A stretch of DNA of 64,000 bases from Candidatus Nomurabacteria bacterium (GCA_020632135.1 JACKGC010000002.1:3325-67324), one strand, 5' to 3'. Numbered from the stretch's first letter, positions 15,703-35,835 are shown. Program-made: numbers and translations. Notes: generated by a model not told the origin, from the sequence alone.

Positions 15703-15706
15703 AGGT

Positions 15707-15731: not shown

Positions 15732-15838
15732 GAGACACATGCAGTAAGCATGTGATGAGCGTATCTCATTGAGATTCATTCATCACATTCTTTCTGGGAA
15801 GATCGAATGATTATTAAACTTAGAAGAAATTATTATTT

Positions 15839-17620: not shown

Positions 17621-17634
17621 GTAACGTACGAAAT

Positions 17635-19029
17635 ATGAGTAACAAAGAATACACAGACATTTCTTCGATTGCCGGACCGCTCATGGTGGTGGAAGGGGTT
17701 GAGGGAGTGAAGTATGAAGAGCTGGTTGAGGTGAATGTGGCTGGTGAGAATGTGCCACGCTTCGGCAAGGTGCTCGATATTGCTAAAGACAAAGCGGTAG
17801 TGCAGATGTTTGCCTCAACTACGGGTATGACCGCAGAGGGAACCCGCGCACGTTTCCGTGGCGAAACCCTCAAGCTTGGTGTGTCTGAGGACATGCTGGG
17901 TCGCGTGTTCAACGGTGCTGGTGAGGTAGCTGACGGTGGTCCGGAGATCGTGCCGGAGCAACGACGCGACATTGCCGGTGAGCCGATCAATCCATACTCA
18001 CGTGAGTTCCCAAACGACTTCATCCAAACGGGGGTATCATCGATCGACGTCATGAACACGCTCGTACGTGGCCAGAAGCTTCCAATTTTCTCCGGAGCTG
18101 GTCTCCCACACTCACGACTCGCGGCACAGATCGCGCGACAGGCTTCGGTAAAGGACGGAAGCGACTTCGCGATCGTCTTTGCAACCCTGGGTGTGTCCTT
18201 TGAGGAAGCTGAATACTTCCGCCGAGAATTCGAAGAGGCAGGCGCACTTGAGCGTTCAGTACTCTTCATCAACACTGCCGCCGACCCAGTGGTTGAGCGT
18301 GTGTCGACGCCGCGCATGGCGCTCACAACCGCAGAGTACCTTGCCTTTGAAAAGGGTAAGCACGTGCTCGTGATCCTTACCGACCTCACCAACTACTGTG
18401 AAGCACTTCGTGAAGTGTCTTCAGCTCGTAAGGAGGTGCCAGGTCGTCGTGGCTACCCAGGGTATCTCTACACCGACCTTTCAACTATTTACGAGCGAGC
18501 TGGTCGTGTGAAAGGCAAGCAGGGAACCATCACGCAGATCCCGATCCTCACCATGCCGGACGATGACAAGACCCACCCAGTGCCGGACCTTACCGGCTAC
18601 ATCACTGAAGGGCAGTTCGTGGTATCGCGCGAACTCTACCGCAAGGGCGTTTTTCCGCCGGTAGATGTACAGGGTTCACTCTCACGCCTCTGGTCTGCCG
18701 GAGTGGGTGAAGGGAAGACTCGCGCCGATCACTCGGCCCTCAAGGACCAGCTCTTTGCATCATACGCAACTGGTCGTGAAGTGCGTGAGCTCGCGGTGGT
18801 GCTCGGTGAAGCGTCGCTCGACGATACTGACCGTGCTCACCTTAAGTTCGCTGATGCGTTCGAACGAGAGTTTGTAGGGCAGGGAGAGTTTGAAAATCGC
18901 TCGGTGGAGGAATCTCTCGACCTTGGCTGGAAGCTCCTCACTATGCTCCCACGCACCTCACTAAAGCGTGTGAAGCCAGAGCAAATTGATAAGCATATGT
19001 CATCTGTAAGCTCGGAAGAAAAGATATAG
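17635..19029 (+). CDS. ntpB: V-type ATPase subunit B
   Basis: 464 aa with the typical B-subunit motifs SGAGLPH and YPGYLYTDL. Confidence 0.97.
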
Positions 19030-19169
19030 TATTTATTGGAGCGTTCCAGGAATTTGCGGCGGGGAAAAGCCTGAGCTTTGCATACAGAAAATACATTCGC
19101 AAGCTCATTATTTTCCAGCAAAATTCGGAACTAAATTCATAATATGCCCTTCAGGCATTTATTCATTCA

Positions 19170-19805
19170 ATGGCAATCCTCAAAGTCAACCCAACCCGAG
19201 TCTCACTCCTTCGTCTCAAGAAGGAATTAAAGACTGCGCAAAAGGGACATAAACTTCTCAAAGACAAGCGAGACGGACTCGTGAAGAAGTTCATGGCGAT
19301 CATTCACGAGACCAAGGCTTTGCGTGAGAGCGTGGAGGAGCGGCTCGGTTCAGCGTTTGATTCATATGCTCGAGCGAGTGGTATGGCTTCAGCGGCAGCA
19401 CTCAACACCGCCTTCATGGTGCCAAACGCCAAGATCGACCTGGGAGTCAAGATCAACAGTGTCATGTCAGTCAAGATCCCTGAATTTGAGATTGAAAAGA
19501 AAGGGTCTGCTTTTTCGTACGGTATGCTCGAAACGACCGGTGACCTCGATAACGCCATGGTGAAGTTCGATGCGGTGTTTGTTGATATTTTGAAACTGGC
19601 AGAGTTGGAAAAGACCGCCGAAAACTTGGCAGCGGAAATTGAAAAGACCCGTCGGCGCGTGTCTGCTCTTGAGAACGTACGTATTCCAAACCTCAATGAC
19701 ACGATCAAGTTCATCACCATGCAGCTCGATGAACGCAACCGCGACGCGGTAGTCTCTACTATGCGCGTGAAGGCGATGATCGTGGCGAAGGAGACCTCTG
19801 AGTAG
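19170..19805 (+). CDS. ntpD: V-type ATPase subunit D
   Basis: MAILKVNPTRVSLLRLKKELKTAQKGHKLLKDKRD is the canonical subunit D N-terminus. Confidence 0.95.
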   Translation: MAILKVNPTRVSLLRLKKELKTAQKGHKLLKDKRDGLVKKFMAIIHETKALRESVEERLGSAFDSYARASGMASAAALNTAFMVPNAKIDLGVKINSVMSVKIPEFEIEKKGSAFSYGMLETTGDLDNAMVKFDAVFVDILKLAELEKTAENLAAEIEKTRRRVSALENVRIPNLNDTIKFITMQLDERNRDAVVSTMRVKAMIVAKETSE

Positions 19806-20192: not shown

Positions 20193-21062
20193 TCAACTGA
20201 ATTCTTTTGTGTGCCAGAGTTGGTTGGTGGCGGGGGTGAAGCGCGCGACGCTAAAGCTTTCGGTCTTGGCGAGCTGTTGGAGTTCGGCTTCAGAGAGCAT
20301 GAGCGCGGTGGTGGCAAAAGCATCAGCGTCGCGCGCTGAGTCGGCTTTAATAAATGACGCTACTCGCGGCGCTGTGTCATTGGTCACGATGTGCGTGTAC
20401 GTTTGCTCGTGGCTCTGCCAAATGCGCTTAAACGGGCTGGAAGCAGCAAAGCCTTGATTGAGGAGGGTGGTGCGATGAATAAAATGTCGTGCTTTAGTCG
20501 GGTGCTCGAGGTAGATCTCGATCGGCTCCTCTTGCTCGCTTGTGGCGTACATATCGCCGCCGCCGTTGATAAGAAAGTACTTAAGCGCAAATTCTGTCTG
20601 CAGAATTCGCGCAAGTTCGTCGATCAAGTATCCTTTCCCAAAGCCACCAATGTCGACATTGCCATGAAGCAGTTCGATCTTTTCTTCAGAGATGAGGAGG
20701 TCAGTAATTGGGTTCCCAGGGGTTTCGTTTTCTGGTTCGCGAGATTCGAATGAGTACGTAGCGTCGTAGCCGCGCGCTTCGAGGATGTGGCCAGTGAGAA
20801 GGTTGAAGTGGGTGTTAGTGCGCAAATACAGCCCTTTGCCGTACTGCAGAAGCGCGCGGCAAGCGTCATCGGGCTGGTGTAGTGCACGCTCACGATTAAG
20901 AGTTGAGATGAGTGAGTCAGGTAAAAAACGTGAGTACTTTGCTTCGTATTCACGCGTAAAACCCTCGAGGCGGCCGAAGGCCGCCTCGAGGGTTGCTGTC
21001 GAAGCTTTATCAAAAATGGTGATCCACCATTTGGTACCAAGTGCTTCGAATTCAGTTTGCAT
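20193..21062 (-). CDS. apbE: FAD:protein FMN transferase (ApbE family)
   Basis: ApbE-like sequence (MQTEFEALGTKWWITIF..., GGFGKGYLIDE, INGGGDMY). The start is trimmed to ATG 21062 because the longer ORF overlaps the upstream gene. Confidence 0.85.
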   Translation of the reverse strand: MQTEFEALGTKWWITIFDKASTATLEAAFGRLEGFTREYEAKYSRFLPDSLISTLNRERALHQPDDACRALLQYGKGLYLRTNTHFNLLTGHILEARGYDATYSFESREPENETPGNPITDLLISEEKIELLHGNVDIGGFGKGYLIDELARILQTEFALKYFLINGGGDMYATSEQEEPIEIYLEHPTKARHFIHRTTLLNQGFAASSPFKRIWQSHEQTYTHIVTNDTAPRVASFIKADSARDADAFATTALMLSEAELQQLAKTESFSVARFTPATNQLWHTKEFS

Positions 21063-21069
21063 GTAGCTA

Positions 21070-21543
21070 CTAGGCGCTTTCCGCGAGAATGTTTTCAATG
21101 GCTCGGTTGAATGCACCGGTGGTAAGTGAAGCACCGCCAACTCGTGAGAGATCAAGCTCATCGATCTGCTTGCCAATGATCGCTTCCTTGTATGCTCCTT
21201 CAAAACGTTGCGCATTAGGATCTACTTCAGCACCTTGACTGTACACAATATTGGCATCGGTGATCACTCCATTATTTGTGGTGAGAGTGACGTTGAGTAG
21301 GTACTCATTATTCGCCGGAGTCAGGTAGGTCACCGAAGTGGTGTGTGCTCCGTCGGGAATTGTTGAAGCGCTAACCACCTCTGTGTTCACTTCGGTATCG
21401 CCCGCAACGAGAATGTCCGTTGAGGCTTCTGGAGAGTTGGTCTCTTCCTGGGCCATGGTCGGCTCTGGTGCGTCTTCCGACTTCATGAGTGCAAAGCCAA
21501 CTGCAACAAGGACCACAACAATAATGCCAATAATGTATGCCAT
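21070..21543 (-). CDS. Membrane-anchored FMN-binding-domain protein (probable ApbE substrate)
   Basis: N-terminal TM helix. C-terminal VGGASLTTGAFNRAIENI resembles the FMN_bind flavinylation region ([ST]GA[ST]-like). Confidence 0.75.
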   Translation of the reverse strand: MAYIIGIIVVVLVAVGFALMKSEDAPEPTMAQEETNSPEASTDILVAGDTEVNTEVVSASTIPDGAHTTSVTYLTPANNEYLLNVTLTTNNGVITDANIVYSQGAEVDPNAQRFEGAYKEAIIGKQIDELDLSRVGGASLTTGAFNRAIENILAESA

Positions 21544-22304: not shown

Positions 22305-22398
22305 ACAAGTGAAATTATTTAGAGCAATGTAACGTAACATATTGGATGTAATGGTCAATTCTCATAGGGTATATGGGGTGATACACTACATACGTTAC

Positions 22399-23931
22399 AT
22401 GGTGCATTTACTTTCAAAACCATTTCATTCACTACAACAATTCGTTGACCGCATCGGTATGTACCGATTAGTACTTGGGTCTCTGTTTGTACTGGCGTTC
22501 TGTTCCGTTCTGGCTGGCTTTACTGGTGACCTTGCATACAGTGGCCTTAGTCAGATCTTTGCGCTCGCGCTCGCGCTCTTGGTAGCGCTGTCGCTCAACT
22601 GGGTCATCGCGCTTATTACCAAAATACCGGCCAATCACGAGTCGGCCGCCATCACAGCGTTGATCTTATTTTTCTTAACCATTCCAGAGGAGAATATTTT
22701 TGCAAACTGGCCCTTGGTGCTGGCTGTTGTGATTGCTATCCTCTCTAAATTTCTCATCACTACCAGGAGGCAACATTTCCTCAACCCGGCTGCGTTTGGT
22801 GCAGCCGCGCTGAGCCTCACAGGGGTGTACATTTTTAATTGGTGGGTGGGAAACCCGACATTGTTCATTCCGCTGATTATCTTCGGCACACTGGTGGTCA
22901 TGAAAGTCCGTAAGTGGGTACCGGTTCTGGCATTTCTGGGAGTTAGTTTGATTGTGTATCTGGCTGAGTCGTTCAGTAATGATGTCTTCCTACATGAGGC
23001 GACCCAAACATTCTTTCTGTCTGGGCCAGCGCTCTTCCTGGCATTCTATATGCTGACTGAACCTTTCACCATGCCCGCCATGAAAGGACCGCAGTTCCTG
23101 TATGGAGGGTTGGTCGGGTTTCTTTCCAGCACCTCGATGTTTTCTGCTTGGCTCTACATCTCACCAGAACTTGCGCTGGTTATGGCGAACATGCTTATGC
23201 TCCCGTGGCGCCTGCGACAAAAACTGTTTCTTGAGTTTATGGAAAAGCGTCAGATCGCGCAGGATACCTGGGAATTCATTTTCAAGAAACCAAAGGGATT
23301 TTCGTTTCAGGCTGGTCAATACTTAGAATGGATGCTGCCGCACGAAGCGGTGGACAGCCGGGGCCCGCGGCGGTATTTCACTATCGCCTCGGCACCGACA
23401 GAAAATACGGTCCGTTTGGCATTCAAGTTGGTTGAGCAAGGGAGTTCATACAAGCGAGAGCTCATGAAACTTGATGTTGGAGAGAAGATCATTGCCAGTC
23501 AGTTAGCCGGCGACTTTGTGTTGCCGTCAGATTCCGGAGTCAAACTTGGCTTCATCGCTGGCGGCATCGGGGTGACGCCGTTCCGGAGTCATATCCAGTT
23601 CATGGCGGACAGTGGACAAGTGCATGATACGAAGCTTTTATACTGTTGCAATACGATGGCGGAGCTGGCCTATAACAATGAGTTCGCCGCTGCCGCGACT
23701 GCGTTTCCTCTCGAGGTGATTCCGGTCATTGCCAAGGAGGAAGTGGCAGCGCCGCTGGAGCGCGGGTATGTGACAGTCGATATGCTCACGCGGCGGGTAC
23801 CCGACTATCTCGAGCGTGTTTGGTATCTTTCAGGTCCACCACCAATGGTCAATGCGTACACGAAATTGCTCCATGATGCAGGGGTGCCGAGCGCCCACAT
23901 CATCTGCGATTTCTTCCCTGGTTTGGCATAA
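22399..23931 (+). CDS. Fusion protein: RnfD/NqrB-like polytopic membrane domain plus an FNR-like FAD/NAD(P)H-binding reductase domain
   Basis: The N-terminal half is hydrophobic, with the RnfD-like segments PANHESAAITALILFF and FLNPAAFGAAAL. The C-terminal half has RRYFTIAS (RxY[ST] FAD motif) and GGIGVTPF (NAD(P)H motif). Confidence 0.75.
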   Translation: MVHLLSKPFHSLQQFVDRIGMYRLVLGSLFVLAFCSVLAGFTGDLAYSGLSQIFALALALLVALSLNWVIALITKIPANHESAAITALILFFLTIPEENIFANWPLVLAVVIAILSKFLITTRRQHFLNPAAFGAAALSLTGVYIFNWWVGNPTLFIPLIIFGTLVVMKVRKWVPVLAFLGVSLIVYLAESFSNDVFLHEATQTFFLSGPALFLAFYMLTEPFTMPAMKGPQFLYGGLVGFLSSTSMFSAWLYISPELALVMANMLMLPWRLRQKLFLEFMEKRQIAQDTWEFIFKKPKGFSFQAGQYLEWMLPHEAVDSRGPRRYFTIASAPTENTVRLAFKLVEQGSSYKRELMKLDVGEKIIASQLAGDFVLPSDSGVKLGFIAGGIGVTPFRSHIQFMADSGQVHDTKLLYCCNTMAELAYNNEFAAAATAFPLEVIPVIAKEEVAAPLERGYVTVDMLTRRVPDYLERVWYLSGPPPMVNAYTKLLHDAGVPSAHIICDFFPGLA

Positions 23932-23985
23932 GAGTTGTGCGTAGCCACACGAAACCCGACCACACTTACTGATACAATAGAATTG

Positions 23986-26982
23986 ATGAAACGAACGAAC
24001 GCGTTGGTCGCGATAGCATTTTTATTTGGGAGTCTCACTTCGCCGTTGGTGGCATTAGCAGCAGATGGTCAGGGTTTTTGGTGCTCACTTTTTGGCTGGG
24101 CAGTGCGTCCGTTTGGTTGGTGTGAGATCACTGAAGTGGTTGAGGTGGTGATAGACAAGAACACGCAAGTGGCGGCAGTGATCGGCCATCAGCCATTTGT
24201 GAGTGGTGTGTCAACCAACTCAGATGATGCTCAATTGATTGCATTTGCCAGTACATCGCAGCCAATTACGTACGAGACCGTAACCAATGAATACATCACT
24301 ATCGAGCAGACTGGCGTGACCCCTGAAATGTTAGACCGGCGTACCACTGAGCTGCTCATGTACATCAATTCGCTGTCACATGGCCAGGCGACCGTGGTGG
24401 CAACTACCAGCGAAGGATTATCTACCCGTGAGTACGTACTGAAGTCGGTCGATCGGGTGTATGAAGTGACTAGTGATGCGCGCCGGGACATTCTTGTGCA
24501 GGCGGAATTCACCAGCCCAACATTGTCTGACGCAGTCTTAAGCGGCACCACGTACGCATCGGGCTGGTTCGGGGTTGGCACCAGCTCACCCTCTGATGTG
24601 TTGTCGGTCAGTGGCGCGATCTATTTAGGCTCAGCGGCACCAAGCAACATTACTAACCGCCTCTATAATGTGAGCGGGGATCTCTATTGGAATGGTTCTA
24701 TCCTCTCTGGATCCAGCACTGCTAATTGGTCAGCGGTCGCGGGTGATGTATTTCGTCTCACGGGCAATGTGGGGATCGGCACAAGTACGCCAGGAGATAC
24801 GCTCACCATTGCCGGCACGCTATCGGCTGGAACCACTACCGCGCGCATCGTCGACACGGGTGGTGAGGTGTGTAATGTTGAAGCGTATGGTGCGGTGGGT
24901 GATAATGCAACGCTCAACGACGCCGCGATCGCGGCCGCGATCGCGGCGTGTGGTGATGGCGGTACAGTTTATTTCCCTATGGGTCAGTACCGCATTGCCA
25001 ATCCAATTGTGCTGGATCGACCAATTACCTTGCGTGGTGCATACTCACCGCGCTGGTCATATTCCAGCACACCACGCAGTTCTATTCGAGCCGACTTCGG
25101 TTCATTTTCTGGCGCAGCACTCATCCATGTACGGGATCGAACTATCTCTGGTGAGGTTGATCACAATAATGGTGGTCGCATAGAGTACTTGAGCCTAGAC
25201 GGCGGTTCGGCCAGTACCGACGTCGATGGTATTTACTTTGAGGGTCTAGTGCGCGACTGGAAGCTCACCGATGTCGACATTTCGCAGGTGACGGGCAATG
25301 GCTTTGAGGCCGCGGTGGGTGCCGGTAGTGGCAACCCACGAGGTTTTACCATTCGTGGCCTCTCGATCTACAGTTCCGATGGGCACGGCTTTAGAGCCAC
25401 CGCACTGAATGATTCCTACGTGGAAGACCTCTTGTCAGTCGGCAATGCGTTGCGCGGGATCTACCTGTCCTCAATTGGTGAGACTAAGTTCAACAACTCG
25501 CGTGCGGTGTTTAACGGCCTTACCGGTCTCTATATTGATGGGTCGTCAGCCAATGGTGGGTTGATGTTCACTGATTTTTCCACCGACCGCAACGACCGGC
25601 ACGGCGTTCGCATTTCGCTCACTGGTACGACCACCGTCACTTTTAATGGACTCTTAACACGTCGTGATGGTGCCAACACAAGCGCTGGTACGGAAACTCC
25701 GTACGCGGGCCTGGCTGTCATTGGTACGTCAAGCGCACAAGTAGCTCCGGTGTTTGTGAATGGTCTGACGCAGATCGTGGGGGTTGATGATGCGGGTGCA
25801 CCGCCACTAGCACCGCTTGTGGGAGTGCGGGTGACCAACGCTTCATATGTGAAAGTGGACGGGCAGCTGTGGGGTGTGACGGCACCATATCAGGATGATG
25901 GTGGTAATGGCCACTTTATTATCGCGGAGGATTCTATTCTCAAGACGGGGATAGTTGGTATTACCGAAGCGGTGCCAACGTTGTTTCATGACAAATTCAT
26001 TGCTACCACCTCGGGACTGTATTACGACGGTCGAGTCAGTATTGGCAGTACGACCGGTAGTCGGTTGTTTAACATCACTGCACCGGCGCAGGCTGGCGCA
26101 CGGTTCCATGACACGACCAATGATGTTATTTTCGATATGCGAGCTGAAGACTACCAAGGTTTCTTTGGTACGTTCTCCAACCATCAGCTACGTTTTCAGA
26201 CCAACAACCTCTCTCGTCTGACGATTGATACTGATGGTGATATTGGAATTGGTACTACTAGTCCAGACAGTGAGCTGGATGTTATTGGTACGATCCAGTC
26301 GTCAGACCTCTTGGGTGGTGCGACGACGCTCACGACAGACGCCAATGGAAATATTATCCGGAATCCTTCAGACAGACGGCTCAAGACAAATATTACTGAC
26401 ATCGGTGGAGCGCTCGAGATGACACTCGCCCTGCGCGGTGTGCGCTATCAGTGGCTTGATGAAGAGCGATTTGGCGAGCAGATGGAGATCGGTTTTATTG
26501 CGCAGGAGGTAGATAAGGTTGTTCCGGAAGCGGTCCGTAAAGGGGGTGACTATTGGTCGCTCAATACCCAGAATCTCATTGCGGTGGTGGTCGAAGGGAT
26601 GAAGGAAATGTGGCAGACGGTGACCGGCAACCAAGCGAAGATCGCAGAGCTTGAGGAGCGGTTGGCAGAAGTAGAGGCGGAACTTGGGCTGGAGCAGCCG
26701 GTGGTGGAGCTAGAGCTACCGAGTGGCACTGAAATAGAAACGATGTCACCCTCAAGTGAGGTGGCGACTACAACCATATCGAGTACGGAAGAACTGGTTG
26801 CGCCAGCAGCAACCACGACCGAGTCGGCAGCTGGTTTGGAGCCAGTAGTTAGTGAGCCAGAATTAGAAGCAGGGTCGCTTGATGCTGCTGTAGTGCCGAC
26901 CGCGGAACCAACTCCGGCGGAACCAGTGGTAGGGGAGGACGAAGCCGAGGAAGACACGGCGGTAATTGATCCGAGTGAGTAA
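23986..26982 (+). CDS. Large surface protein: tail-fibre-like repeats, right-handed beta-helix (pectate-lyase/tailspike-like) and a C-terminal S74 intramolecular chaperone domain
   Basis: N-terminal TM/signal. GVGTSSPSDVLSVSG, GIGTSTPGDTLTIAG and IGIGTTSPDSELDVIG tail-fibre motifs. VEAYGAVGDNATLNDAAIAAAIAACGDGGTVYFPMGQYRI (from ~24871). SDRRLKTNI...GFIAQEV...NLIAVVVEGMKE (26368-26690), followed by an acidic tail. Confidence 0.8.
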   Translation: MKRTNALVAIAFLFGSLTSPLVALAADGQGFWCSLFGWAVRPFGWCEITEVVEVVIDKNTQVAAVIGHQPFVSGVSTNSDDAQLIAFASTSQPITYETVTNEYITIEQTGVTPEMLDRRTTELLMYINSLSHGQATVVATTSEGLSTREYVLKSVDRVYEVTSDARRDILVQAEFTSPTLSDAVLSGTTYASGWFGVGTSSPSDVLSVSGAIYLGSAAPSNITNRLYNVSGDLYWNGSILSGSSTANWSAVAGDVFRLTGNVGIGTSTPGDTLTIAGTLSAGTTTARIVDTGGEVCNVEAYGAVGDNATLNDAAIAAAIAACGDGGTVYFPMGQYRIANPIVLDRPITLRGAYSPRWSYSSTPRSSIRADFGSFSGAALIHVRDRTISGEVDHNNGGRIEYLSLDGGSASTDVDGIYFEGLVRDWKLTDVDISQVTGNGFEAAVGAGSGNPRGFTIRGLSIYSSDGHGFRATALNDSYVEDLLSVGNALRGIYLSSIGETKFNNSRAVFNGLTGLYIDGSSANGGLMFTDFSTDRNDRHGVRISLTGTTTVTFNGLLTRRDGANTSAGTETPYAGLAVIGTSSAQVAPVFVNGLTQIVGVDDAGAPPLAPLVGVRVTNASYVKVDGQLWGVTAPYQDDGGNGHFIIAEDSILKTGIVGITEAVPTLFHDKFIATTSGLYYDGRVSIGSTTGSRLFNITAPAQAGARFHDTTNDVIFDMRAEDYQGFFGTFSNHQLRFQTNNLSRLTIDTDGDIGIGTTSPDSELDVIGTIQSSDLLGGATTLTTDANGNIIRNPSDRRLKTNITDIGGALEMTLALRGVRYQWLDEERFGEQMEIGFIAQEVDKVVPEAVRKGGDYWSLNTQNLIAVVVEGMKEMWQTVTGNQAKIAELEERLAEVEAELGLEQPVVELELPSGTEIETMSPSSEVATTTISSTEELVAPAATTTESAAGLEPVVSEPELEAGSLDAAVVPTAEPTPAEPVVGEDEAEEDTAVIDPSE

Positions 26983-27024: not shown

Positions 27025-27045
27025 GGCCGGCGCTTCGCGCCGGCC
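27025..27045 (+). terminator. Rho-independent terminator
   Basis: GGCCGGCGC-ttc-GCGCCGGCC then GATTCTTTC. Confidence 0.6.
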
Positions 27046-27083: not shown

Positions 27084-28532
27084 ATGGTAACCGCAAGAAT
27101 GTGGTACGCCTTGCTTGTGGCTGCAATGCTGCATGTCGGGGTCGCACAATCAGCTGTAACACAAGCGTGTTTGGCGAAGGACGCGGAGTGGGATGCAGCC
27201 ATGCATACTGCTCGTATGCGGGAGCTCGGCATTACTTGTGCCACGGTCTACTACAGCCTAATGTCCAAAGATAATCGCAAACATCCCTATGAGTGGGTGC
27301 GCAAGCACTACCTCGACGCTGGGTATCGGGTTGTGTTGGTACTAAAGCTTGATGCCGGTAACAGCACTACCGAATCGCGTTCAGTAGGAAATTTACAGGC
27401 AGTGGTAGGAGGGTACTATGACACCGCACTTGATGAGCTAATTGCGAGGATCAAACGAGATGGTCGGCCGATCGTAGTGCGTCCATTTCATGAGATCGAT
27501 GGGGATTGGCATCCATGGGGTATGTATACCTCAGGTAACTCACCACAGCTTGCTGTGGCAGCAGTGGAACATATTGCAGCGCGCTTTCGTGATGCGAATG
27601 CTCCGGTGATGATCGAGATCAACTTCAACCGGCGTGATGGCAAAGGTAAGGTGCTTGGTGACGCCGAGTACTACATACCGCGCTTCAACGAGTTTGTTGA
27701 TGCCTATTCGATCTCTACCTACAACCGCTGCGGGACCGCGAAGCGGTACACGACCGAACAATCGTTCGCGACAGAATTTAAACCTGCCTACGATCGACTG
27801 CTCGGACTCACTACTAAGCCAATCAATGTCGCTGAGACATCGACTTCAGGGTTGTGTGGTGCTCGTCTACCGTGGTTCCGTGAACTGTTTCGAACTATCG
27901 ACTCATCATTTACTCAGGTGGAGTCCGTGACGTTCGTATTTGGTACGGTGCCAGTCGGTGCAGTGTCAAACGACCGCCCTATTCAATGGGGTTTTTCATC
28001 GACTGCTGAACGAGCGCAATTCAAAGCGTTCTTGCAGCAGTCATGGCCGCAGCTACCGCTCGTACCAAGTAAGGGTAGGGAAACCAGACCCTCGCTTGAC
28101 TTTCGGGCGCCCTGGAGTGCGTTCGCTCAACTCACGTATCCCTTTGAGGAAACGTCTAATCCAGCTCTAAACCCGGTCACGGGTACTGAGTTCGGCAAGC
28201 AAGAGCTCGTCTTGCGTTCGCAGTTCAAACAGCGGTTGCTGTTTGACGCTGGGAACGACTTCGAGGTCGGGCCTGGCGTATACGTGGGGTTGGTCGAGTC
28301 GACCAACGATGATCAGTGGTGGAATAACCATGGCACCTTAGGTGCCACACTCGGGCTCTACCGGGAGGTTGAACGCTCAGGTGCGGTCGATTGGGGTGGT
28401 TGGTCGGTGGAGCTGTATGTCGAACGACGACAGTTCACCACCGACGCACCATCTCGCTACCGTGGCGACGGAGAAACCCAAGCTGGCATACGTGCTGGTC
28501 TCAACATCGGCGGCGATTGGACTCGCCACTAG
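27084..28532 (+). CDS. Secreted GH26-like glycoside hydrolase domain protein with a beta-strand-rich C-terminal region
   Basis: Signal peptide MVTARMWYALLVAAMLHVGVAQSA. VVRPFHEIDGDWHPWG resembles the GH26 RPxHEMNGxWFWWG motif. AGGAGG RBS. Confidence 0.55.
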   Translation: MVTARMWYALLVAAMLHVGVAQSAVTQACLAKDAEWDAAMHTARMRELGITCATVYYSLMSKDNRKHPYEWVRKHYLDAGYRVVLVLKLDAGNSTTESRSVGNLQAVVGGYYDTALDELIARIKRDGRPIVVRPFHEIDGDWHPWGMYTSGNSPQLAVAAVEHIAARFRDANAPVMIEINFNRRDGKGKVLGDAEYYIPRFNEFVDAYSISTYNRCGTAKRYTTEQSFATEFKPAYDRLLGLTTKPINVAETSTSGLCGARLPWFRELFRTIDSSFTQVESVTFVFGTVPVGAVSNDRPIQWGFSSTAERAQFKAFLQQSWPQLPLVPSKGRETRPSLDFRAPWSAFAQLTYPFEETSNPALNPVTGTEFGKQELVLRSQFKQRLLFDAGNDFEVGPGVYVGLVESTNDDQWWNNHGTLGATLGLYREVERSGAVDWGGWSVELYVERRQFTTDAPSRYRGDGETQAGIRAGLNIGGDWTRH

Positions 28533-28540: not shown

Positions 28541-30100
28541 ATGATCGAGTTTTGGCGCCAGTATGTGTCAGTCACCGTACTGACCGGCGCGTGGTCGCAT
28601 TTTCAGATCTACGTGATGTACGCGTGGACAGTAATGTTGCCACGCGCCCTCGGGGCCGGAGTATTCTATAGCTTCCGGCCAGCCAAACCAACCAAGCTTA
28701 CCGTGCAATACGGGCTCGCACTTATCCTGGCGCTGGTGTTGTTCATTGTCCCAACGGTATTTTGGGCCAAAGAGCTGATCAGTGGCTGGTATGTACTTGC
28801 TGGGGTGGTTGTGGGCATGTTGCTGGTGGCACCACCGGTCCGACGTCGGATCATTCGGTTTACCTTCCAGTCAACCTACTACGCCAAGCATGTGCGGATC
28901 GTGCCGCAGGAAGGCCCGGTCTGTGCTCAGAGAATGGTGGCTATGATGACGATCTTTGATGAAGATCCAGATTTTTTGGATCGGAGTCTGAGAAATATTC
29001 GGCGTTCGCTTGGAGCGGCACCGGGTGACTTCGTGCTCATAGCGATCATCGATGGCTACGGCAACTTTCAGCACGCTGAAGCAGCGATTCCGGTGGCCAA
29101 GCGTCACTGTGATATCGTGATGACCACCAATGCTCAGAAAAAACGGGCTGGTCTTGAAGCTATGGGGCTTGAAGCATACAGTCGAGGGTTGATCACGACC
29201 GGGGAGGAGATCATTCATCTGATCGACTCTGACACCAAACCGGCAAGTGATCAAGTGGCCTCTGAGTTAAACCGTCCGTTCGCAGATCAGACTATTGGAG
29301 GAGTGACCACGGCACAGTATATCGATAACCCGCAATCATTTGCACAGCATGTGATGCAGATATTTGAGACGATCAGGAACTTCGGTTCACAGGCATTCAT
29401 GAGCCTGTTTGGTTCGATCGGGTGTCTGCCGGGTCGTTGGTATGCAGTACGAGCAAAGTATCTCACTAAGGAGGTGTTCCACGATCTCAACTCTCACTCG
29501 TTCAGCTGGTTTGGATTATTCCGGCACATTAGTAAAGCAGGCGATGATCGTCATATTACCGAGGCTGTTTTAAAAGCTGGAGGCAAGACGATCCTAGCGC
29601 CTGACGCGGTTGTGTTTACCGGTGCACCGTATCACTTCAACGATATGCGGAAGATGGTGACTCGGTGGGCTCGTTCGTCAAACGGCTACACGTTTCGGGC
29701 GTGGTGGCTATTTCGGCCAGCGCATTGGGCGACTGCGTTTGTCTACTGGGGGAACATTGGATTGGCATTCGGGACCGTGTACATTGTGTTTCCGTATCTG
29801 CTCTACCAGTTCTTCTTCGGTGATCGGGATATCTTGCTCATCGAAGCTGCGCTGTTCATGTTCCTGAGTATGGCGATGACCATGACATTCAGGTTTATAC
29901 CAGTGTGGAGTCGGCAGTTGTATTACCTGCTCTACATGCCTGTCATGGGCTTTGTCGGGATCTTCATGCAGGTGATCCAAGTGGTCGGTATTGTCACGCA
30001 TGTGCACAAGATCGGGAACTGGGATACGCGCGGTGCTGATGTTGGGGCGAAGGATATCAAGCCAATGTGTAAGGTGATCTACGTACGACCGACGACTTGA
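28541..30100 (+). CDS. Processive family-2 glycosyltransferase (hyaluronan/chitin/NodC-synthase-like), integral membrane
   Basis: AGGAGG RBS before ATG 28541; the ORF-track start 28391 overlaps the upstream gene. Motifs DSDT, GDDRHIT and RKMVTRWARS (QxxRW-like), with flanking TM helices. Confidence 0.8.
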   Translation: MIEFWRQYVSVTVLTGAWSHFQIYVMYAWTVMLPRALGAGVFYSFRPAKPTKLTVQYGLALILALVLFIVPTVFWAKELISGWYVLAGVVVGMLLVAPPVRRRIIRFTFQSTYYAKHVRIVPQEGPVCAQRMVAMMTIFDEDPDFLDRSLRNIRRSLGAAPGDFVLIAIIDGYGNFQHAEAAIPVAKRHCDIVMTTNAQKKRAGLEAMGLEAYSRGLITTGEEIIHLIDSDTKPASDQVASELNRPFADQTIGGVTTAQYIDNPQSFAQHVMQIFETIRNFGSQAFMSLFGSIGCLPGRWYAVRAKYLTKEVFHDLNSHSFSWFGLFRHISKAGDDRHITEAVLKAGGKTILAPDAVVFTGAPYHFNDMRKMVTRWARSSNGYTFRAWWLFRPAHWATAFVYWGNIGLAFGTVYIVFPYLLYQFFFGDRDILLIEAALFMFLSMAMTMTFRFIPVWSRQLYYLLYMPVMGFVGIFMQVIQVVGIVTHVHKIGNWDTRGADVGAKDIKPMCKVIYVRPTT

Positions 30101-32833: not shown

Positions 32834-33082
32834 ATGTCTCGCAAAGTCAACAAAAAGAAACGCTATGAGGTAATGTTCGAATTTCTCCTGTTTGGTATTG
32901 TAATTGGCGTGACCGAGGATCTGCTGGCAGTTCATCTGACGACAGGAGAGACTGTTACCTGGTCGATGATCGGTATCGTGATCTTGCTGGCCATTCCGTT
33001 TGCCATTATTGGTGAACTGATCGCTGACCACGTGGACTTTGTGAAGGTCTATGAGCGAATTACAGGCCGCCGCAAGCGATGA
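32834..33082 (+). CDS. Small membrane protein, hypothetical
   Basis: Two predicted TM helices (FEFLLFGIVIGV..., MIGIVILLAIPFAIIG). Start at ATG 32834. Confidence 0.45.
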   Translation: MSRKVNKKKRYEVMFEFLLFGIVIGVTEDLLAVHLTTGETVTWSMIGIVILLAIPFAIIGELIADHVDFVKVYERITGRRKR

Positions 33083-33165
33083 ACAGTTCTTAGTTGAAAT
33101 GTGGCTAAAAATCTGTAGAATAGCGGGTACTTAGCTTTTTGCTGAGTACTAGAGCTATATATTAT

Positions 33166-33237
33166 TCCGCGGTAGCTCAGCGGTAGAGCAGTCGGCTGTT
33201 AACCGATTGGTCGCAGGTTCGAATCCTGCCCGCGGAG
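33166..33237 (+). tRNA. tRNA-Asn (anticodon GTT)
   Basis: Hand-folded cloverleaf: acceptor TCCGCGG/CCGCGGA, D-arm GCTC..GAGC, anticodon stem GTCGG/CCGAT with loop CTGTTAA, T-arm GCAGG-TTCGAAT-CCTGC, discriminator G. Confidence 0.9.
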
Positions 33238-34812
33238 CAATACAGAACTCTGAGAGTACAAATCGCTATAAAACTGTTGCCTGTCAACGGTTTTTTGCGG
33301 TTCGAACCTATCGTGAATTTGCTTTACTTCAACAGAAGCCTTTTCAATGGCTTGAAGCATATCTGGCATGATAATAAAGAGTTTTTTGTCTACAAGCTTG
33401 AGGTTCGAACCTAGCATGAACAACATCTCTTTTCTGGTTCGTAATGATCCGTTTTTAAACCTCTTGTAGGCATCCTCGGCAAAAGTGAGATATTTTTCTG
33501 CATTGTTAAACCACTCTGTCGTACGTTCATTAGTGTTTCTAACTAGAGACTCTTGTCTAGACTTCTCCTGAAGTAGTTTTGCCTTTCTAGTTTTGAACTC
33601 TTCTGCACTAATTTCTTGGCTTGCCCTAAGATCAATGAGGTTGTCTATCTTTTGCAGGAGGTCTCCTAACTTTTGCTGTTGATTAAGGATAATCTTTTTT
33701 CTTGCTTTGACCTCTCGATTGTTATCCTCTTTAAGCCGGGTCATTGCCCAATTAAAAAACTCTTCAGGTATATCAATGCTTAACATTGATTTAGCTATCT
33801 GTTTTTCAAGCTTCTTCTCCTCAATTACCTTCTGTGAACAGTTGGGGTCTTTCCGCTTCGTACAGTGATAATAAACATAATGCCTCTCTATGCCGTTTTT
33901 CTGACGCTTTACTTTGTTTTCTGCTGTAATCATGGCACCACATTCGCCACAGATGATGGGACCTTTGTATGGGAAGTTGTAAGTTTTAGGACGAGTATTG
34001 TGTTTACCACCTAAAATATCCTGTACACTCTCGAACTCCTCTCTAGTGACCATTGGGTCGTGTTTGCCTTGGTACCAATTACCACTGCCTTTTGGGTATT
34101 CAAATACGCCATAATAGAAAGGATCAGATAGTATCCTGTAAATGTTACTCTTTGAGACAGCCTTTTCTTTGCGGTTTAACAAACCCCATTCTTCAGTGGC
34201 AATTTTGAGCACTTGAGGGGGTGTATAAGCACCTGTGAGCATTAAGTCCCATATCTTTCTGACTAAGTCGTATCTTTCAGGGTCTTTGACTATCTCTTTG
34301 TCTCCTTTGTTTTTGTAAGGATTGTGCATGTATCCAATAGTAGCCCATGCCGGGTACCACCCTCTTTCTGCTTTTGCTTTCAACCCTCGCTTTGTGTCGG
34401 TGCGTAAGTCTCGGATAAATTGGTTTGCTACACCAAACTCAACCTGCATCATCAGTACGTTATCGTCTGACTTGTAGTCTCTACCGTAGGTTTGTATGTG
34501 TTCGATGACATTCTCCTGTAACATCCAGCTGATATTTCCACCATCTATGGGATTGCGGGCAAGTCGGTTAAGTTTCCAGCAGAGTATACCAGTAGCTTCA
34601 CCCGAAGAAATGCGCATTAGCATGTCATTAAAAACAGGTCGTCCGGGAGCTTTGGCTGATCGTGACTCCTCAAACACTTCTACAACGTTTAACTTTTTAT
34701 CCTTGGCTAGCTCACGTAATTCACTAACCTGAGCATCAATAGACGCCATTTGCCGGTCTTCGTTTTCTGAAGACTTTCGAGCATAGATGAAGTATTTATC
34801 TGCGGCGTTCAT
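33199..34812 (-). CDS. Large serine recombinase (resolvase/invertase N-domain, recombinase domain, zinc ribbon, coiled coil)
   Basis: YARKSSENEDRQMASIDAQ (catalytic Ser region), CGECGAMITAE...YYHC zinc ribbon and a long helical C-terminus. The last 16 codons (SSVLLRGQDSNLRPIG*) are encoded on the complement of the tRNA-Asn. Confidence 0.9.
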   Translation of the reverse strand: MNAADKYFIYARKSSENEDRQMASIDAQVSELRELAKDKKLNVVEVFEESRSAKAPGRPVFNDMLMRISSGEATGILCWKLNRLARNPIDGGNISWMLQENVIEHIQTYGRDYKSDDNVLMMQVEFGVANQFIRDLRTDTKRGLKAKAERGWYPAWATIGYMHNPYKNKGDKEIVKDPERYDLVRKIWDLMLTGAYTPPQVLKIATEEWGLLNRKEKAVSKSNIYRILSDPFYYGVFEYPKGSGNWYQGKHDPMVTREEFESVQDILGGKHNTRPKTYNFPYKGPIICGECGAMITAENKVKRQKNGIERHYVYYHCTKRKDPNCSQKVIEEKKLEKQIAKSMLSIDIPEEFFNWAMTRLKEDNNREVKARKKIILNQQQKLGDLLQKIDNLIDLRASQEISAEEFKTRKAKLLQEKSRQESLVRNTNERTTEWFNNAEKYLTFAEDAYKRFKNGSLRTRKEMLFMLGSNLKLVDKKLFIIMPDMLQAIEKASVEVKQIHDRFEPQKTVDRQQFYSDLYSQSSVLLRGQDSNLRPIG

Positions 34813-35796: not shown

Positions 35797-35835
35797 GTGT
35801 GGGTGGCGTGTGAGCGAGGTTTGGTGATTTAAAAA

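What the first reader, a model, noticed from the sequence alone, without database searches (positions are those of the whole stretch)
23986..26982. Phage tailspike/tail-fibre-like cellular protein with an S74 self-cleaving chaperone domain
The protein combines several phage-type parts:
- an N-terminal membrane anchor;
- three (I)G(I)GT(T)SP...L.V.G tail-fibre motifs;
- a pectate-lyase-type beta-helix entry motif (YGAVGDNATLNDAAIAAAIAACGDGGTVYFPMGQY);
- a C-terminal intramolecular chaperone region (SDRRLKTNI...GFIAQEV..., 26368-26690) as in endosialidase and tail-spike proteins;
- an extra acidic, Pro-rich ~95-aa tail.

No other phage genes are nearby. Instead it sits next to a polysaccharide synthase locus. 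It may be a domesticated depolymerase that trims the cell's own, or a host's, glycan.
Basis: partly seen in the sequence, partly recalled or inferred. Interest (0 to 1): 0.55.

Follow-up and report, generated by a model that had tools for sequence, protein, structure and literature searches.

The report
Tailspike-like secreted enzyme fibre, Paceibacteria
A tiny "candidate phyla radiation" bacterium carries, in its core genome and not in a prophage, a gene built like a phage tailspike (sugar-cutting beta-helix plus a self-removing folding domain); it always sits next to a polysaccharide synthase and a glycan hydrolase, so it is probably a surface fibre that works on an extracellular sugar polymer.

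Summary
ORF 23986-26982 (+) encodes a 998-aa protein with these parts:
- a signal peptide;
- three fibre "capping-loop" motifs;
- a confident right-handed beta-helix (residues 290-655);
- a Peptidase_S74 chaperone with an invariant Ser795/Lys800 dyad;
- a 98-aa acidic tail.

The identical protein is already in NCBI as "tail fiber domain-containing protein" from Candidatus Nomurabacteria.

It is cellular, not prophage. About 50 full-length orthologues lie on Patescibacteria contigs up to 745 kb. In every informative locus the gene is followed by a secreted GH26 hydrolase (closest to lichenase CtLic26A). In all 14 loci long enough to tell, a hyaluronan-synthase-like membrane GT2 comes next. The cassette stays intact while its flanks change.

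The beta-helix is the most conserved part. It shares an Asp/Arg cluster with actinophage tailspikes but lacks the AlgE epimerase catalytic residues. The "membrane anchor" is more likely a cleaved signal peptide. The true anchor is probably the N-terminal Cys loop, which two orthologues replace with a peptidoglycan-binding domain.

Best reading: a wall-tethered, S74-matured trimeric glycanase fibre that works with the adjacent exopolysaccharide genes. A host-directed role, as in Bdellovibrio MAT fibres, is not excluded. This is a new variant of a known kind, of moderate interest.

The parts
23986..26982 (+). Whole gene: 998-aa precursor of the tailspike-like fibre (the stop codon is 26980-26982)
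   Evidence: ORF list. An identical 998-aa protein, P0001, is in NCBI as 'tail fiber domain-containing protein [Candidatus Nomurabacteria bacterium]'. The same gene call appears on three Logan contigs.
23986..24060 (+). Residues 1-25: Sec-type signal peptide (MKRTN-ALVAIAFLFGSLTSPLVALA|AD)
   Evidence: It is the only hydrophobic segment, with mean Kyte-Doolittle 2.1 over residues 6-24. An AxA site is followed by polar residues, and equivalent N-termini occur in most of the 32 orthologues. Cleavage is inferred, not predicted by a tool.
24082..24123 (+). Residues 33-46: conserved Cys loop C-x2-FGW-x-V-R/K-P-x-G-x-C; candidate cell-proximal anchor
   Evidence: It is conserved in the family consensus even though the rest of the N-terminus varies. 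In P0033 and P0034 a PG_binding_1 domain occupies this position instead.
24124..24852 (+). Residues 47-289: variable stalk with two fibre capping-loop motifs (196-210 and 263-277)
   Evidence: Column identity is 0.2-0.58. Monomer pLDDT is low, with predicted helices at 113-128 and 148-172. Motifs were located. The motif equals the MAT capping-loop consensus V-G-G/N-pi-x-x-P-x-x-x-L (PMC10769870).
24853..25950 (+). Residues 290-655: right-handed parallel beta-helix, the putative glycan-active domain. Conserved cluster: R398, D476, D481, R506, T533-D534-R535-N536, R559-R560-D561, D602
   Evidence: PF12708 hit. pLDDT is about 88-94. Foldseek matches beta-helix carbohydrate enzymes and tailspikes with probability 1.0. 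It is 27-37% identical to actinophage tailspike and minor tail proteins. The cluster is invariant in 32 CPR orthologues and in 5 of 5 phage homologues. It is the most conserved part of the protein.
25951..26367 (+). Residues 656-794: distal fibre segment, presumably an intertwined trimeric beta-structure, with the third capping-loop motif (754-768)
   Evidence: Residues 728-804 align with the crystallised tip of a Bdellovibrio MAT fibre, 8ojn, E 3.4e-7. pLDDT is low in a monomer model, as expected for an obligate trimer. This segment expands to about 1,800 aa in long orthologues.
26368..26685 (+). Residues 795-900: Peptidase_S74 intramolecular chaperone plus C-terminal helices. Ser795 is at nt 26368-26370 and Lys800 at nt 26383-26385; the predicted self-cleavage is before Ser795
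   Evidence: PF13884 at 64.6 bits. It matches the MYRF ICA domain 7dc3. Ser795 and Lys800 are invariant in 32 of 32 orthologues. pLDDT is about 70-84.
26686..26979 (+). Residues 901-998: acidic Glu/Pro/Thr/Ser/Ala-rich disordered tail, released together with the chaperone
   Evidence: It has 20 Glu and 4 Asp, no Lys or Arg, and net charge -24. A tail of 48-150 aa with similar composition but no sequence conservation is present in the 25 orthologues measured. pLDDT is below 35.
27025..27045 (+). All-GC 9-bp hairpin after the fibre stop codon: a possible terminator or attenuator ahead of the GH26-like gene
   Evidence: Terminator-like hit. The intergenic RNA fold has z = -4.4. A GGAGG ribosome-binding site precedes the next ATG. 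Function is inferred only.
27084..28532 (+). Neighbour 1: secreted GH26-like hydrolase (TIM barrel at residues 27-320 plus a C-terminal beta domain at 340-482)
   Evidence: In the window it is below the Pfam threshold (18.1 bits). Syntenic orthologues score above it at 34.6 and 43.8 bits. The family profile matches C. thermocellum Lic26A at E 1e-35, against about 1e-5 for mannanases. Catalytic Glu137 and Glu251 are invariant. The model has pLDDT 89 and TM 0.82 to CtLic26A; next among different proteins is PslG.
28541..30100 (+). Neighbour 2: membrane-embedded processive GT2 synthase of the hyaluronan-synthase / chitin-synthase / NodC type
   Evidence: Pfam GT2 and Chitin_synth_2 hits. The family profile matches Chlorella-virus hyaluronan synthase 7sp7 at E 5e-25 and HAS1 at 7e-18, against chitin synthase at 7e-4. 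The GDDR, xRW and W(G/D)TR motifs are present. It starts 8 bp after the GH26-like gene.

Best explanation
The gene encodes a secreted surface fibre of tailspike design. It belongs to the core genome of Paceibacteria (Parcubacteria, CPR).

Proposed mechanism:
1. The 998-aa precursor is exported by the Sec pathway through its N-terminal signal peptide.
2. Outside the membrane, three C-terminal S74 domains associate. They template the intertwined distal fibre segment (about residues 656-794), which brings the three beta-helix bodies (290-655) into a trimer.
3. The Ser795/Lys800 dyad cuts the chain before Ser795. This releases a 204-aa fragment made of the chaperone and the acidic tail.
4. The mature trimer, about 3 x 81 kDa, stays on the cell through its N-terminal module. 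That module is a conserved Cys loop here and a peptidoglycan-binding domain in two orthologues.
5. The beta-helix carries a conserved Asp/Arg groove that binds, and probably cleaves, a polysaccharide.
6. The most likely substrate is the extracellular polymer made by the adjacent hyaluronan-synthase-like GT2 and also processed by the adjacent secreted Lic26A-like GH26. The three genes would then form one exopolysaccharide make-and-remodel module.

Shown here: the domain architecture, the invariant dyad, the fold, the conserved residue cluster, the cellular (non-prophage) location and the conserved three-gene order.

Inferred: export and signal-peptide cleavage, trimerisation, autoproteolysis, anchoring, catalysis and substrate identity.
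For: Architecture:
- Pfam S74 and PF12708 both score above threshold.
- 22 PHROG families match, 19 of them labelled tail proteins.
- The beta-helix has pLDDT about 90 and Foldseek probability 1.0 to beta-helix glycan enzymes and tailspikes.
- Residues 728-804 align to the Bdellovibrio MAT fibre tip 8ojn, running straight into the cleavage site.

S74 competence:
- Ser795 and Lys800 are invariant in 32 of 32 orthologues, including the divergent SSxRFK subgroup.
- The same S-x4-K motif was shown to self-cleave in the MAT protein Bd3182 (PMC10769870).

Cellular, core-genome gene:
- About 50 full-length orthologues, 41-75% identical over their aligned parts, lie on Patescibacteria contigs up to 745 kb.
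- Flanking genes are housekeeping: V/A-ATPase, ApbE, UDG, Fpg, RecG and type IV pilus genes.

Functional linkage:
- In 16 distinct loci the GH26-like gene directly follows the fibre gene. In one of them a 336-aa gene intervenes.
- In all 14 loci long enough to tell, the GT2 follows the GH26-like gene.
- Three look-ups that started from the GH26-like protein all found the fibre gene upstream.
- Upstream context differs between loci. In L027 the cassette has moved as a unit relative to ApbE and RnfD-FNR.

Likely enzyme:
- The beta-helix is the most conserved region, with 70-89% column identity. It is 63-83% identical across the 14 closest 50%-identity cluster representatives.
- R398, D476, D481, R506, TDRN533-536, RRD559-561 and D602 are invariant in the CPR orthologues and in 5 of 5 actinophage tailspike homologues that are only about 30% identical overall.

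Neighbours fit a synthase-dependent exopolysaccharide system:
- The GT2 is closest to hyaluronan synthase.
- The hydrolase is closest to Lic26A, has both catalytic Glu residues, and has a two-domain layout that also aligns with the Psl-operon hydrolase PslG.

N-terminus as anchor:
- PG_binding_1 replaces the Cys loop in P0033 and P0034.
Against: - No activity, processing or localisation data exist for any family member.
- No characterised enzyme is close enough to map an active site.
- The AlgE4 catalytic residues Y149, D152, H154 and D178 align to N438, E441, A443 and T472, so they are not retained. Lyase versus hydrolase therefore cannot be decided.
- A cognate hydrolase (GH26) is already in the cassette, so a second depolymerase for the same polymer is not obviously needed.
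- A strong hairpin separates the fibre gene from GH26-GT2, so the three genes may not be one transcript.
- The closest non-CPR relatives of the beta-helix are tailspikes of phages that attack Actinobacteria. The distal segment also varies greatly in length, giving proteins of 787 to 2,647 aa. Both features suit a host-directed fibre.
- The beta-helix is more conserved than the GT2 (22-64% identity) or the GH26 (28-53%).
- Trimerisation could not be modelled because only monomer prediction was available.
Confidence: 0.55

Rival explanations
1. Host-directed fibre. Like Bdellovibrio MAT fibres or a phage tailspike, the trimer projects from the episymbiont. Its variable distal tip binds a host surface glycan, and the beta-helix digests host capsule or cell-wall polysaccharide to allow attachment or feeding. 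Under this reading the neighbouring GH26 and GT2 are co-located surface-glycan genes and do not supply its substrate.
For: - The best solved-structure sequence match is a Bdellovibrio MAT fibre tip, and the protein carries the MAT capping-loop motif three times.
- The beta-helix is homologous to actinophage tailspike and minor tail proteins (PHROG 11699).
- The segment between the beta-helix and S74 expands from about 140 aa to about 1,800 aa in orthologues, as expected for a diversifying distal end.
- A hairpin separates the gene from GH26-GT2.
- CPR bacteria are generally thought to live attached to hosts (abstracts listed).
Against: - The putative enzymatic domain is unusually uniform, 63-83% identical across the 14 closest cluster representatives. 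Host-specific depolymerases usually diversify.
- The fibre/GH26/GT2 order is kept in all informative loci, even when the cassette relocates. That is hard to explain without a shared function.
- The conserved 130-aa N-terminal domain of MAT proteins was not detected here.
- Hosts of these lineages are unknown.
Confidence: 0.25
2. Non-catalytic matrix or adhesin fibre. The beta-helix only binds glycan, in the manner of the Pseudomonas Psl-binding adhesin CdrA or the pneumococcal beta-helix adhesin PfbA. It would tether the GT2 product to the cell wall or act as a general adhesin.
For: - The profile also matches the beta-helix adhesins PfbA (4mr0) and a pneumococcal surface-anchor protein (3zpp), though only at the N-terminal cap.
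- No known catalytic motif could be mapped, and the AlgE4 residues are absent.
- The GH26 already supplies hydrolysis.
- A wall-binding N-terminus combined with a glycan-binding body would make a tether.
Against: - A cluster of four Asp and five Arg residues, stacked at about 25-28-residue spacing on successive coils, is invariant between CPR proteins and phage tailspikes that are about 30% identical. That is more typical of a catalytic groove than of a lectin surface.
- The top structural neighbours are enzymes.
Confidence: 0.12
3. A phage gene after all: a tail gene of an unrecognised prophage or a decaying prophage remnant.
For: - Every domain has its best-annotated relatives in phage tail proteins.
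- A low-GC island with a large serine recombinase next to tRNA-Asn begins about 6 kb downstream.
Against: - GC content of the gene (0.54) matches the surrounding genome, not the island at 0.42.
- UDG and Fpg lie between the gene and the island.
- The island has no PHROG structural hits. It is absent from relatives that still have the cassette.
- The gene has a Sec signal peptide, which phage tail proteins do not need.
- The same gene sits in the same housekeeping neighbourhood in genomes whose orthologues are only 40-65% identical.
- No phage protein covers more than 38% of it.
Confidence: 0.03

Closest known systems
Phage tailspike or tail-fibre depolymerases with a C-terminal S74 intramolecular chaperone (endosialidase of phage K1F, phage T5 L-shaped tail fibre pb1; Pfam PF13884)
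   Same: - C-terminal S74 domain with the S-D-x-x-x-K dyad placed directly after a trimeric beta-structure.
- A pectate-lyase-type beta-helix body.
- Foldseek finds uncultured-phage proteins with the same beta-helix plus chaperone layout.
   Different: - Encoded in a cellular core genome.
- Carries a Sec signal peptide and an N-terminal wall-anchor candidate instead of a virion-attachment domain.
- Has an extra acidic tail of about 100 aa after the chaperone.
- Sits in a conserved cassette with a GT2 synthase and a GH26 hydrolase.
- No phage protein covers more than 38% of it.
Bdellovibrio bacteriovorus MAT (mosaic adhesive trimer) fibres, S74 subgroup, for example Bd3182 (PMC10769870)
   Same: - Cell-encoded, signal-peptide-bearing, surface-located trimeric fibres ending in a self-cleaving S74 domain.
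- They share the capping-loop motif.
- Direct sequence match to the 8ojn fibre tip at E 3.4e-7.
   Different: - The conserved 130-aa N-terminal MAT domain was not detected; a Cys loop and a variable stalk take its place.
- Here a large single-chain right-handed beta-helix, probably an enzyme, is inserted in mid-fibre and is the conserved part. In MAT fibres the variable adhesive tip is the functional part.
- Here there is one conserved gene in an exopolysaccharide cassette, rather than a family of 21 paralogues.
Actinophage tailspike / minor tail proteins (Curtobacterium phage Eevee gp10; Streptomyces phages Ibantik, Kradal, GiJojo, Stella; PHROG 11699)
   Same: - Homologous beta-helix, 27-37% identical over residues 293-670.
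- The same invariant Asp/Arg cluster.
   Different: - These phage proteins did not match the query's S74 region in the tblastn search; their remaining domains were not examined.
- None has a characterised activity, so they give no substrate.
Glycan-active enzymes encoded within exopolysaccharide loci: RbmB, the Vibrio VPS lyase with a beta-helix (PMC11637428, PMC12993940); PslG; BcsZ; AlgG / AlgE
   Same: - A beta-helix protein, and separately a TIM-barrel hydrolase, encoded beside a polysaccharide synthase.
- RbmB and the AlgE modules are among the top structural matches of the beta-helix.
- PslG matches the GH26-like neighbour over both of its domains.
   Different: - Those enzymes are monomeric and have no S74 chaperone or fibre segments.
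- The AlgE4 catalytic residues are not retained here.
- Those synthase systems belong to Proteobacteria with an outer membrane.
Myelin regulatory factor (MYRF) ICA domain
   Same: A cellular (eukaryotic) use of the same self-cleaving trimerising domain; weak direct match at E 0.007 to 7dc3.
   Different: MYRF is a membrane-bound transcription factor, not an extracellular glycan-active fibre.

Membership tests
Peptidase_S74 / intramolecular chaperone auto-processing domain (PF13884) | Profile match above the curated threshold at the C-terminal end of a fibre protein | tested here: met
   64.6 bits against a cutoff of 22, covering residues 795-851 and profile positions 1-58 of 58. Nearly all listed full-length orthologues carry the domain.
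Peptidase_S74 / intramolecular chaperone auto-processing domain (PF13884) | Catalytic Ser-Lys dyad in an S-(D/S)-x-x-x-K motif | tested here: met
   S795-D-R-R-L-K800. Both residues are invariant in 32 of 32 aligned orthologues.
Peptidase_S74 / intramolecular chaperone auto-processing domain (PF13884) | Autoproteolytic release of the domain after trimer assembly | not testable with these tools
   This needs expression of the wild type and a Ser795Ala mutant followed by SDS-PAGE or mass spectrometry. Only a monomer model was available.
Right-handed parallel beta-helix glycan enzymes / tailspike depolymerases (PF12708, pectate-lyase-like) | Profile match and beta-helix fold | tested here: met
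   PF12708 at 47.8 bits against a cutoff of 27. In the window protein only the N-terminal cap matches; orthologues match profile positions 2-200. pLDDT is about 90 for residues 290-655. Foldseek probability is 1.0 to AlgE4, RbmB, phi29 gp12, the Sf6 and CBA120 tailspikes, GH55, GH87 and GH28.
Right-handed parallel beta-helix glycan enzymes / tailspike depolymerases (PF12708, pectate-lyase-like) | Identifiable catalytic residues | tested here: inconclusive
   A conserved Asp/Arg cluster is shared with phage homologues. No characterised homologue is close enough to assign roles to these residues.
Mannuronan C5-epimerase / alginate lyase A-module (AlgE type) | Catalytic Y149, D152 and H154 (the YGFDPHE motif) and D178 of AlgE4. 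The residue list is from my own knowledge of the AlgE4 structure paper. The numbering agrees with the 2pyg chain as printed. | tested here: not met
   In the profile alignment to 2pyg these four residues align to N438, E441, A443 and T472 of the window protein. E441 varies among orthologues.
Bdellovibrio MAT superfamily | Signal peptide, capping-loop motif V-G-G/N-pi-x-x-P-x-x-x-L, and trimeric beta-helical fibre ending in S74 | tested here: met
   Signal-peptide-like N-terminus. Three motif copies. Match to 8ojn at E 3.4e-7. The family definition is taken from PMC10769870.
Bdellovibrio MAT superfamily | Conserved beta-rich N-terminal domain of about 130 aa immediately after the signal peptide | not tested
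   No MAT N-terminal sequence or structure was available to compare. Here the region after the signal peptide is a Cys loop followed by a poorly conserved stalk, partly predicted as helical. Membership is therefore not claimed.
Prophage tail gene | Contiguous phage structural, packaging or lysis genes, or island-like composition | tested here: not met
   Neighbours are housekeeping genes. The same is true in 14 other distinct loci on contigs up to 745 kb. GC content equals that of the host genome. The nearby island has no PHROG structural hits.
Synthase-dependent exopolysaccharide gene cluster (processive GT2 plus cognate secreted glycoside hydrolase) | A membrane GT2 with processive-synthase motifs adjacent to a secreted hydrolase with intact catalytic residues, with the gene order conserved | tested here: met
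   The GT2 is closest to hyaluronan synthase at E 5e-25, and its GDDR, xRW and WGTR motifs are invariant or nearly so. The GH26-like protein has invariant Glu137 and Glu251 and matches Lic26A at E 1e-35. Gene order is conserved. The polymer itself is unknown.

The most novel reading that the evidence does not exclude
Paceibacteria have fixed a tailspike-derived, S74-matured trimeric enzyme fibre in their core genome as part of a three-gene host-contact organelle. In this reading the wall-anchored fibre reaches out with a diversifying distal tip. It digests a host envelope polysaccharide with the same beta-helix that actinophages use. The adjacent hyaluronan-synthase-like GT2 and lichenase-like GH26 lay down and remodel an adhesive glycan at the contact site. 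That would make it a CPR counterpart of Bdellovibrio MAT fibres and a first molecular handle on how Parcubacteria engage their unknown hosts.
Probability: 0.2. Interest if true: 0.75.

Novelty: new variant of a known kind. Interest (0 to 1): 0.45.

Why it matters
Cell-encoded S74 fibres are known so far mainly from the predator Bdellovibrio, with MYRF as the eukaryotic case.

Here the same phage-type folding device is attached to a highly conserved, probably catalytic beta-helix. The gene sits in the core genome of a major CPR lineage. It is locked into a three-gene cassette with a hyaluronan-synthase-like synthase and a lichenase-like hydrolase.

If the module builds and trims an extracellular glycan, it is one of the few predictable surface-matrix systems in these uncultivated, host-dependent bacteria. 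If it instead acts on hosts, it offers a bait for finding those hosts.

The family also gives a natural example of Sec-exported, extracellularly assembled tailspike trimers. The conserved Asp/Arg groove gives a set of residues to test, both here and in the uncharacterised actinophage tailspikes.

Tried and rejected
It was repeated with database homologues.

Ideas tested and rejected:
- Prophage. The low-GC island at 32.9-46.4 kb was scanned with PHROGs and Pfam. It holds a serine recombinase, a GNAT, a radical-SAM protein and unknown genes, with no structural phage genes. It is an insertion next to tRNA-Asn that relatives lack.
- AlgE-type epimerase or lyase. This was suggested by the top Foldseek hits. 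It was rejected because the catalytic residues do not align.
- Lipoprotein anchor. The first Cys, at residue 33, is preceded by bulky residues (GFW-C here; F, W, I, L, M or V at position -1 in most orthologues). That does not fit a lipobox (the lipobox rule is from my own knowledge).
- Mannan as the polymer. This was suggested by the GH26 label and by GH130, PMM and MPI genes upstream in L006. It was down-weighted because the GH26 profile matches lichenase Lic26A 30 orders of magnitude better than mannanases.

Searches that found nothing:
- A second S74 protein in the window: none.
- Literature on this family in CPR. Searches with CPR/Patescibacteria terms plus tail fiber / S74 / endosialidase, and CPR plus pectate lyase / beta-helix, found no description of it.
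- Homologues of the GT2: only 9 close relatives, none with an informative name.

Full report
**1. The observation**

The open frame 23935-26982 on the + strand has an ATG at 23986. That start gives a 998-aa protein, the same product public annotation gives.

- One hydrophobic N-terminal segment, residues 6-24.
- Three G(I/V)GT..P...L.(V/I).G motifs at residues 196-210, 263-277 and 754-768.
- The beta-helix entry YGAVGDN... at 301-335, inside a PF12708 match (47.8 bits, cutoff 27).
- A full-length Peptidase_S74 match at 795-851 (64.6 bits, cutoff 22), beginning with S795-DRRL-K800.
- A 98-aa tail with 24 acidic and no basic residues.

PHROGs returns 22 families, 19 of them labelled tail proteins.

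**2. What organism, and is it a phage gene?**

The identical protein is in NCBI as [quoted passage not shown]. The neighbouring GT2 is labelled Candidatus Kaiserbacteria. The window is therefore from a Parcubacteria/Paceibacteria (CPR) genome.

Genes around the fibre gene are housekeeping:
- Upstream: a V/A-type ATPase operon, ApbE, and an RnfD/NqrB-like-FNR fusion.
- Downstream: UDG and Fpg.

About 50 orthologues with the same PF12708 + PF13884 architecture lie on Patescibacteria contigs up to 745 kb. None of the inspected loci contains phage structural genes.

A low-GC island (GC 0.42 against 0.52) begins about 6 kb downstream. It sits at tRNA-Asn 33166-33238 and starts with a large serine recombinase. 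It has no PHROG structural hits. In relatives Fpg is followed directly by a gene for a protein of about 2,000 aa. The homologue here (46518-52655) lies beyond the island. The island is thus an unrelated insertion. No phage protein covers more than 38% of the query. The prophage reading is rejected.

**3. Anatomy**

Alignment of 32 orthologues (A1) and a monomer AlphaFold2 model give the layout below.

| Residues | Part | Main evidence |
|---|---|---|
| 1-25 | Sec-type signal peptide with VALA\|AD | Same form in most orthologues |
| 33-46 | Conserved Cys loop C-x2-FGW-x-V-R/K-P-x-G-x-C | |
| 47-289 | Poorly conserved stalk with two capping-loop motifs | Column identity 0.2-0.58 |
| 290-655 | Right-handed beta-helix | pLDDT about 90; most conserved region, 70-89% column identity |
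| 656-794 | Distal segment | Low confidence in a monomer model; residues 728-804 align to the crystallised tip of a Bdellovibrio MAT fibre, 8ojn, E 3.4e-7 |
| 795-900 | S74 domain plus helices | pLDDT 70-84; Ser795 and Lys800 invariant in 32 of 32 |
| 901-998 | Acidic, disordered tail | Conserved in composition only, 48-150 aa in the 25 orthologues measured |

Further points on anatomy:
- In P0033 and P0034 the Cys loop is replaced by a PG_binding_1 domain. This marks the N-terminus as the cell-wall-proximal end.
- Orthologues vary mostly by expansion of the distal segment, up to a 2,647-aa protein.

**4. The beta-helix**

Foldseek against the PDB gives probability 1.0 matches to these groups:
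- mannuronan C5-epimerase modules AlgE4 and AlgE6;
- the Vibrio VPS lyase RbmB;
- an alginate epimerase/lyase and DFA-IIIase;
- phage proteins phi29 gp12, the Sf6 and CBA120 tailspikes, and Geobacillus virus E2 ORF18;
- glycoside hydrolases of families GH55, GH87 and GH28.

BFVD returns phage tailspikes, some with the same beta-helix plus chaperone layout.

By sequence, residues 293-670 are 27-37% identical to minor tail and tailspike proteins of Curtobacterium and Streptomyces phages. A scan of 1.8 billion representative proteins finds 141 relatives at E <= 1e-30. There is a sharp gap between 14 CPR-type representatives (63-83% identical) and everything else (<= 46%, apart from two short fragments).

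Residues invariant both in the CPR family and in five phage homologues are R398, D476, D481, R506, T533-D534-R535-N536, R559-R560-D561-G562 and D602. Their spacing of about 25-28 residues suggests a stack along successive coils, which is what an active-site groove looks like.

The AlgE4 catalytic residues Y149, D152, H154 and D178 align to N438, E441, A443 and T472. It is therefore not an AlgE-type epimerase or lyase. Hydrolase versus lyase remains open.

**5. The neighbourhood is a conserved cassette**

Neighbour 1 (27084-28532) is a secreted TIM-barrel enzyme.
- In the window it is just below the Pfam GH26 threshold. Its syntenic orthologues score above it.
- Its family profile hits the C. 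thermocellum lichenase Lic26A at E 1e-35, against about 1e-5 for mannanases.
- Catalytic Glu137 and Glu251 are invariant.
- The model (pLDDT 89) superposes on CtLic26A at TM 0.82. Next among different proteins is the Psl-operon hydrolase PslG, aligned over both domains.

Neighbour 2 (28541-30100) starts 8 bp later.
- It is a multi-pass GT2 whose family profile is closest to hyaluronan synthases (E 5e-25 and 7e-18) rather than chitin synthase (7e-4).
- It has the GDDR, xRW and WGTR motifs.

Evidence that the three genes belong together:
- tblastn of the window proteins on all fetched loci shows the GH26-like gene directly after the fibre gene in every informative locus. There are 16 distinct loci including the window; in one a 336-aa gene intervenes.
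- The GT2 follows in all 14 loci that extend far enough.
- Three look-ups that started from the GH26-like protein also found the fibre gene upstream.
- Upstream genes differ between loci: V-ATPase, F-ATPase + XFP, GH130 + PMM, or RecG.
- In L027 the cassette has moved to the other side of ApbE and RnfD-FNR, next to IS elements.

A 9-bp all-GC hairpin follows the fibre stop codon. The fibre gene may therefore be transcribed more strongly than, or separately from, GH26-GT2.

**6. Mechanism proposed**

1. Sec export.
2. Extracellular trimer assembly nucleated by the S74 domains.
3. Self-cleavage before Ser795, releasing the 22-kDa chaperone plus acidic tail.
4. Retention on the wall through the N-terminal module.
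5. Binding, and probably cleavage, of a polysaccharide in the conserved groove.

I rate the general statement (a secreted, S74-matured, trimeric, glycan-active fibre) at about 0.85. I rate [quoted passage not shown] at about 0.5-0.55.

The hyaluronan-synthase-like GT2 (hyaluronan synthases make alternating beta-1,3/beta-1,4 linkages) and the lichenase-like hydrolase (lichenases cut mixed beta-1,3/1,4 glucans) hint at a mixed-linkage beta-glycan. This is speculation.

Rivals:
- A host-directed MAT-like adhesin or depolymerase (0.25). It is favoured by the phage and MAT affinities and by the expandable distal end. It is disfavoured by the uniform beta-helix and the fixed cassette.
- A non-catalytic matrix tether (0.12).
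- A prophage gene (0.03).

**7. Comparison and novelty**

The parts are all known:
- S74 chaperones in phage fibres and in Bdellovibrio MAT fibres (PMC10769870).
- Beta-helix tailspikes.
- Exopolysaccharide-locus glycanases such as RbmB (PMC11637428).

The protein is already deposited under a generic name. What I could not find described is this combination:
- a signal-peptide-bearing, wall-anchored tailspike with an S74 chaperone and an extra acidic tail;
- fixed in the core genome of a CPR lineage;
- locked to a hyaluronan-synthase-like synthase and a lichenase-like hydrolase.

I class it as a new variant of a known kind, interest 0.45.

Noticed in passing
window 32900-46400 (tRNA-Asn 33166-33238 +; serine recombinase 33199-34812 -): A low-GC island (0.41-0.45 against 0.50-0.54) sits next to tRNA-Asn. 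It starts with a large serine recombinase and holds several ORFs with no Pfam or PHROG hit. In relatives L005, L025 and L026, Fpg is followed directly by the giant-protein gene, so the island is an insertion here. The giant gene is also in the opposite orientation. A Logan contig of the same strain ends at the island edge.
   Followed up: partly
window 41140-41733 (-) and 42072-43451 (+): Inside the island are a GNAT acetyltransferase and a radical-SAM protein with a weak PqqD-like C-terminus. This may be a peptide-modification (RiPP-type) pair carried by the mobile element.
   Followed up: no
window 46518-52655 (-): A 2,045-aa ORF with a signal-peptide-like N-terminus, internal repeats and no Pfam match. 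Homologues of about 2,000-2,100 aa (38-44% identical) occupy the position next to Fpg in related genomes, so it is a conserved giant surface protein of unknown function.
   Followed up: partly
window 24082-24123 (residues 33-46 of the fibre): A conserved Cys-x12-Cys loop (C-x2-FGW-x-V-R/K-P-x-G-x-C) lies a few residues after the predicted signal-peptide cleavage site. It is found in most family members and is replaced by PG_binding_1 in two. It is not a lipobox, and no known anchor motif matches it.
   Followed up: partly
window 28101-28529 (residues 340-482 of the GH26-like protein): A confidently modelled all-beta C-terminal domain ending in ...GGDW. It is present in the long orthologues (about 470-530 aa) and absent from the short ones (330-396 aa). 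The whole protein aligns with the two-domain hydrolase PslG, but the role of this domain is unknown.
   Followed up: partly
window 55163-57241 (-) and 54152-54955 (-): A second polysaccharide module: one 692-aa protein that fuses a polysaccharide deacetylase to a processive GT2 (PNAG-synthase-like). It lies next to a secreted CAP-domain protein.
   Followed up: no
window 11214-19805 (+), 20193-21215 (-), 22342-23931 (+): A complete V/A-type ATPase operon is followed by ApbE and an unusual fusion of an RnfD/NqrB-like membrane domain to an FNR-type NAD-binding reductase. The same trio accompanies the fibre cassette in several relatives (L005, L008, L009, L026).
   Followed up: no
L011 6881-14821; proteins P0123 and P0124 (about 2,540-2,650 aa): These are giant orthologues of the fibre. 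The segment between the beta-helix and S74 is expanded to about 1,800 aa with no Pfam match. The GH26-like gene still follows directly in L011.
   Followed up: partly
L013 6917-8836: The fibre orthologue's reading frame breaks after about 640 aa, although similarity continues in another frame. This is either a pseudogene or an assembly frameshift.
   Followed up: no
L006 5409-9517: In one relative the cassette is preceded by phosphomannomutase, a mannose-6-phosphate-isomerase-type cupin and two GH130 (beta-mannoside phosphorylase-type) genes. That locus also has two GH26-like paralogues. This is a possible hint about sugar supply, or a coincidence.
   Followed up: no
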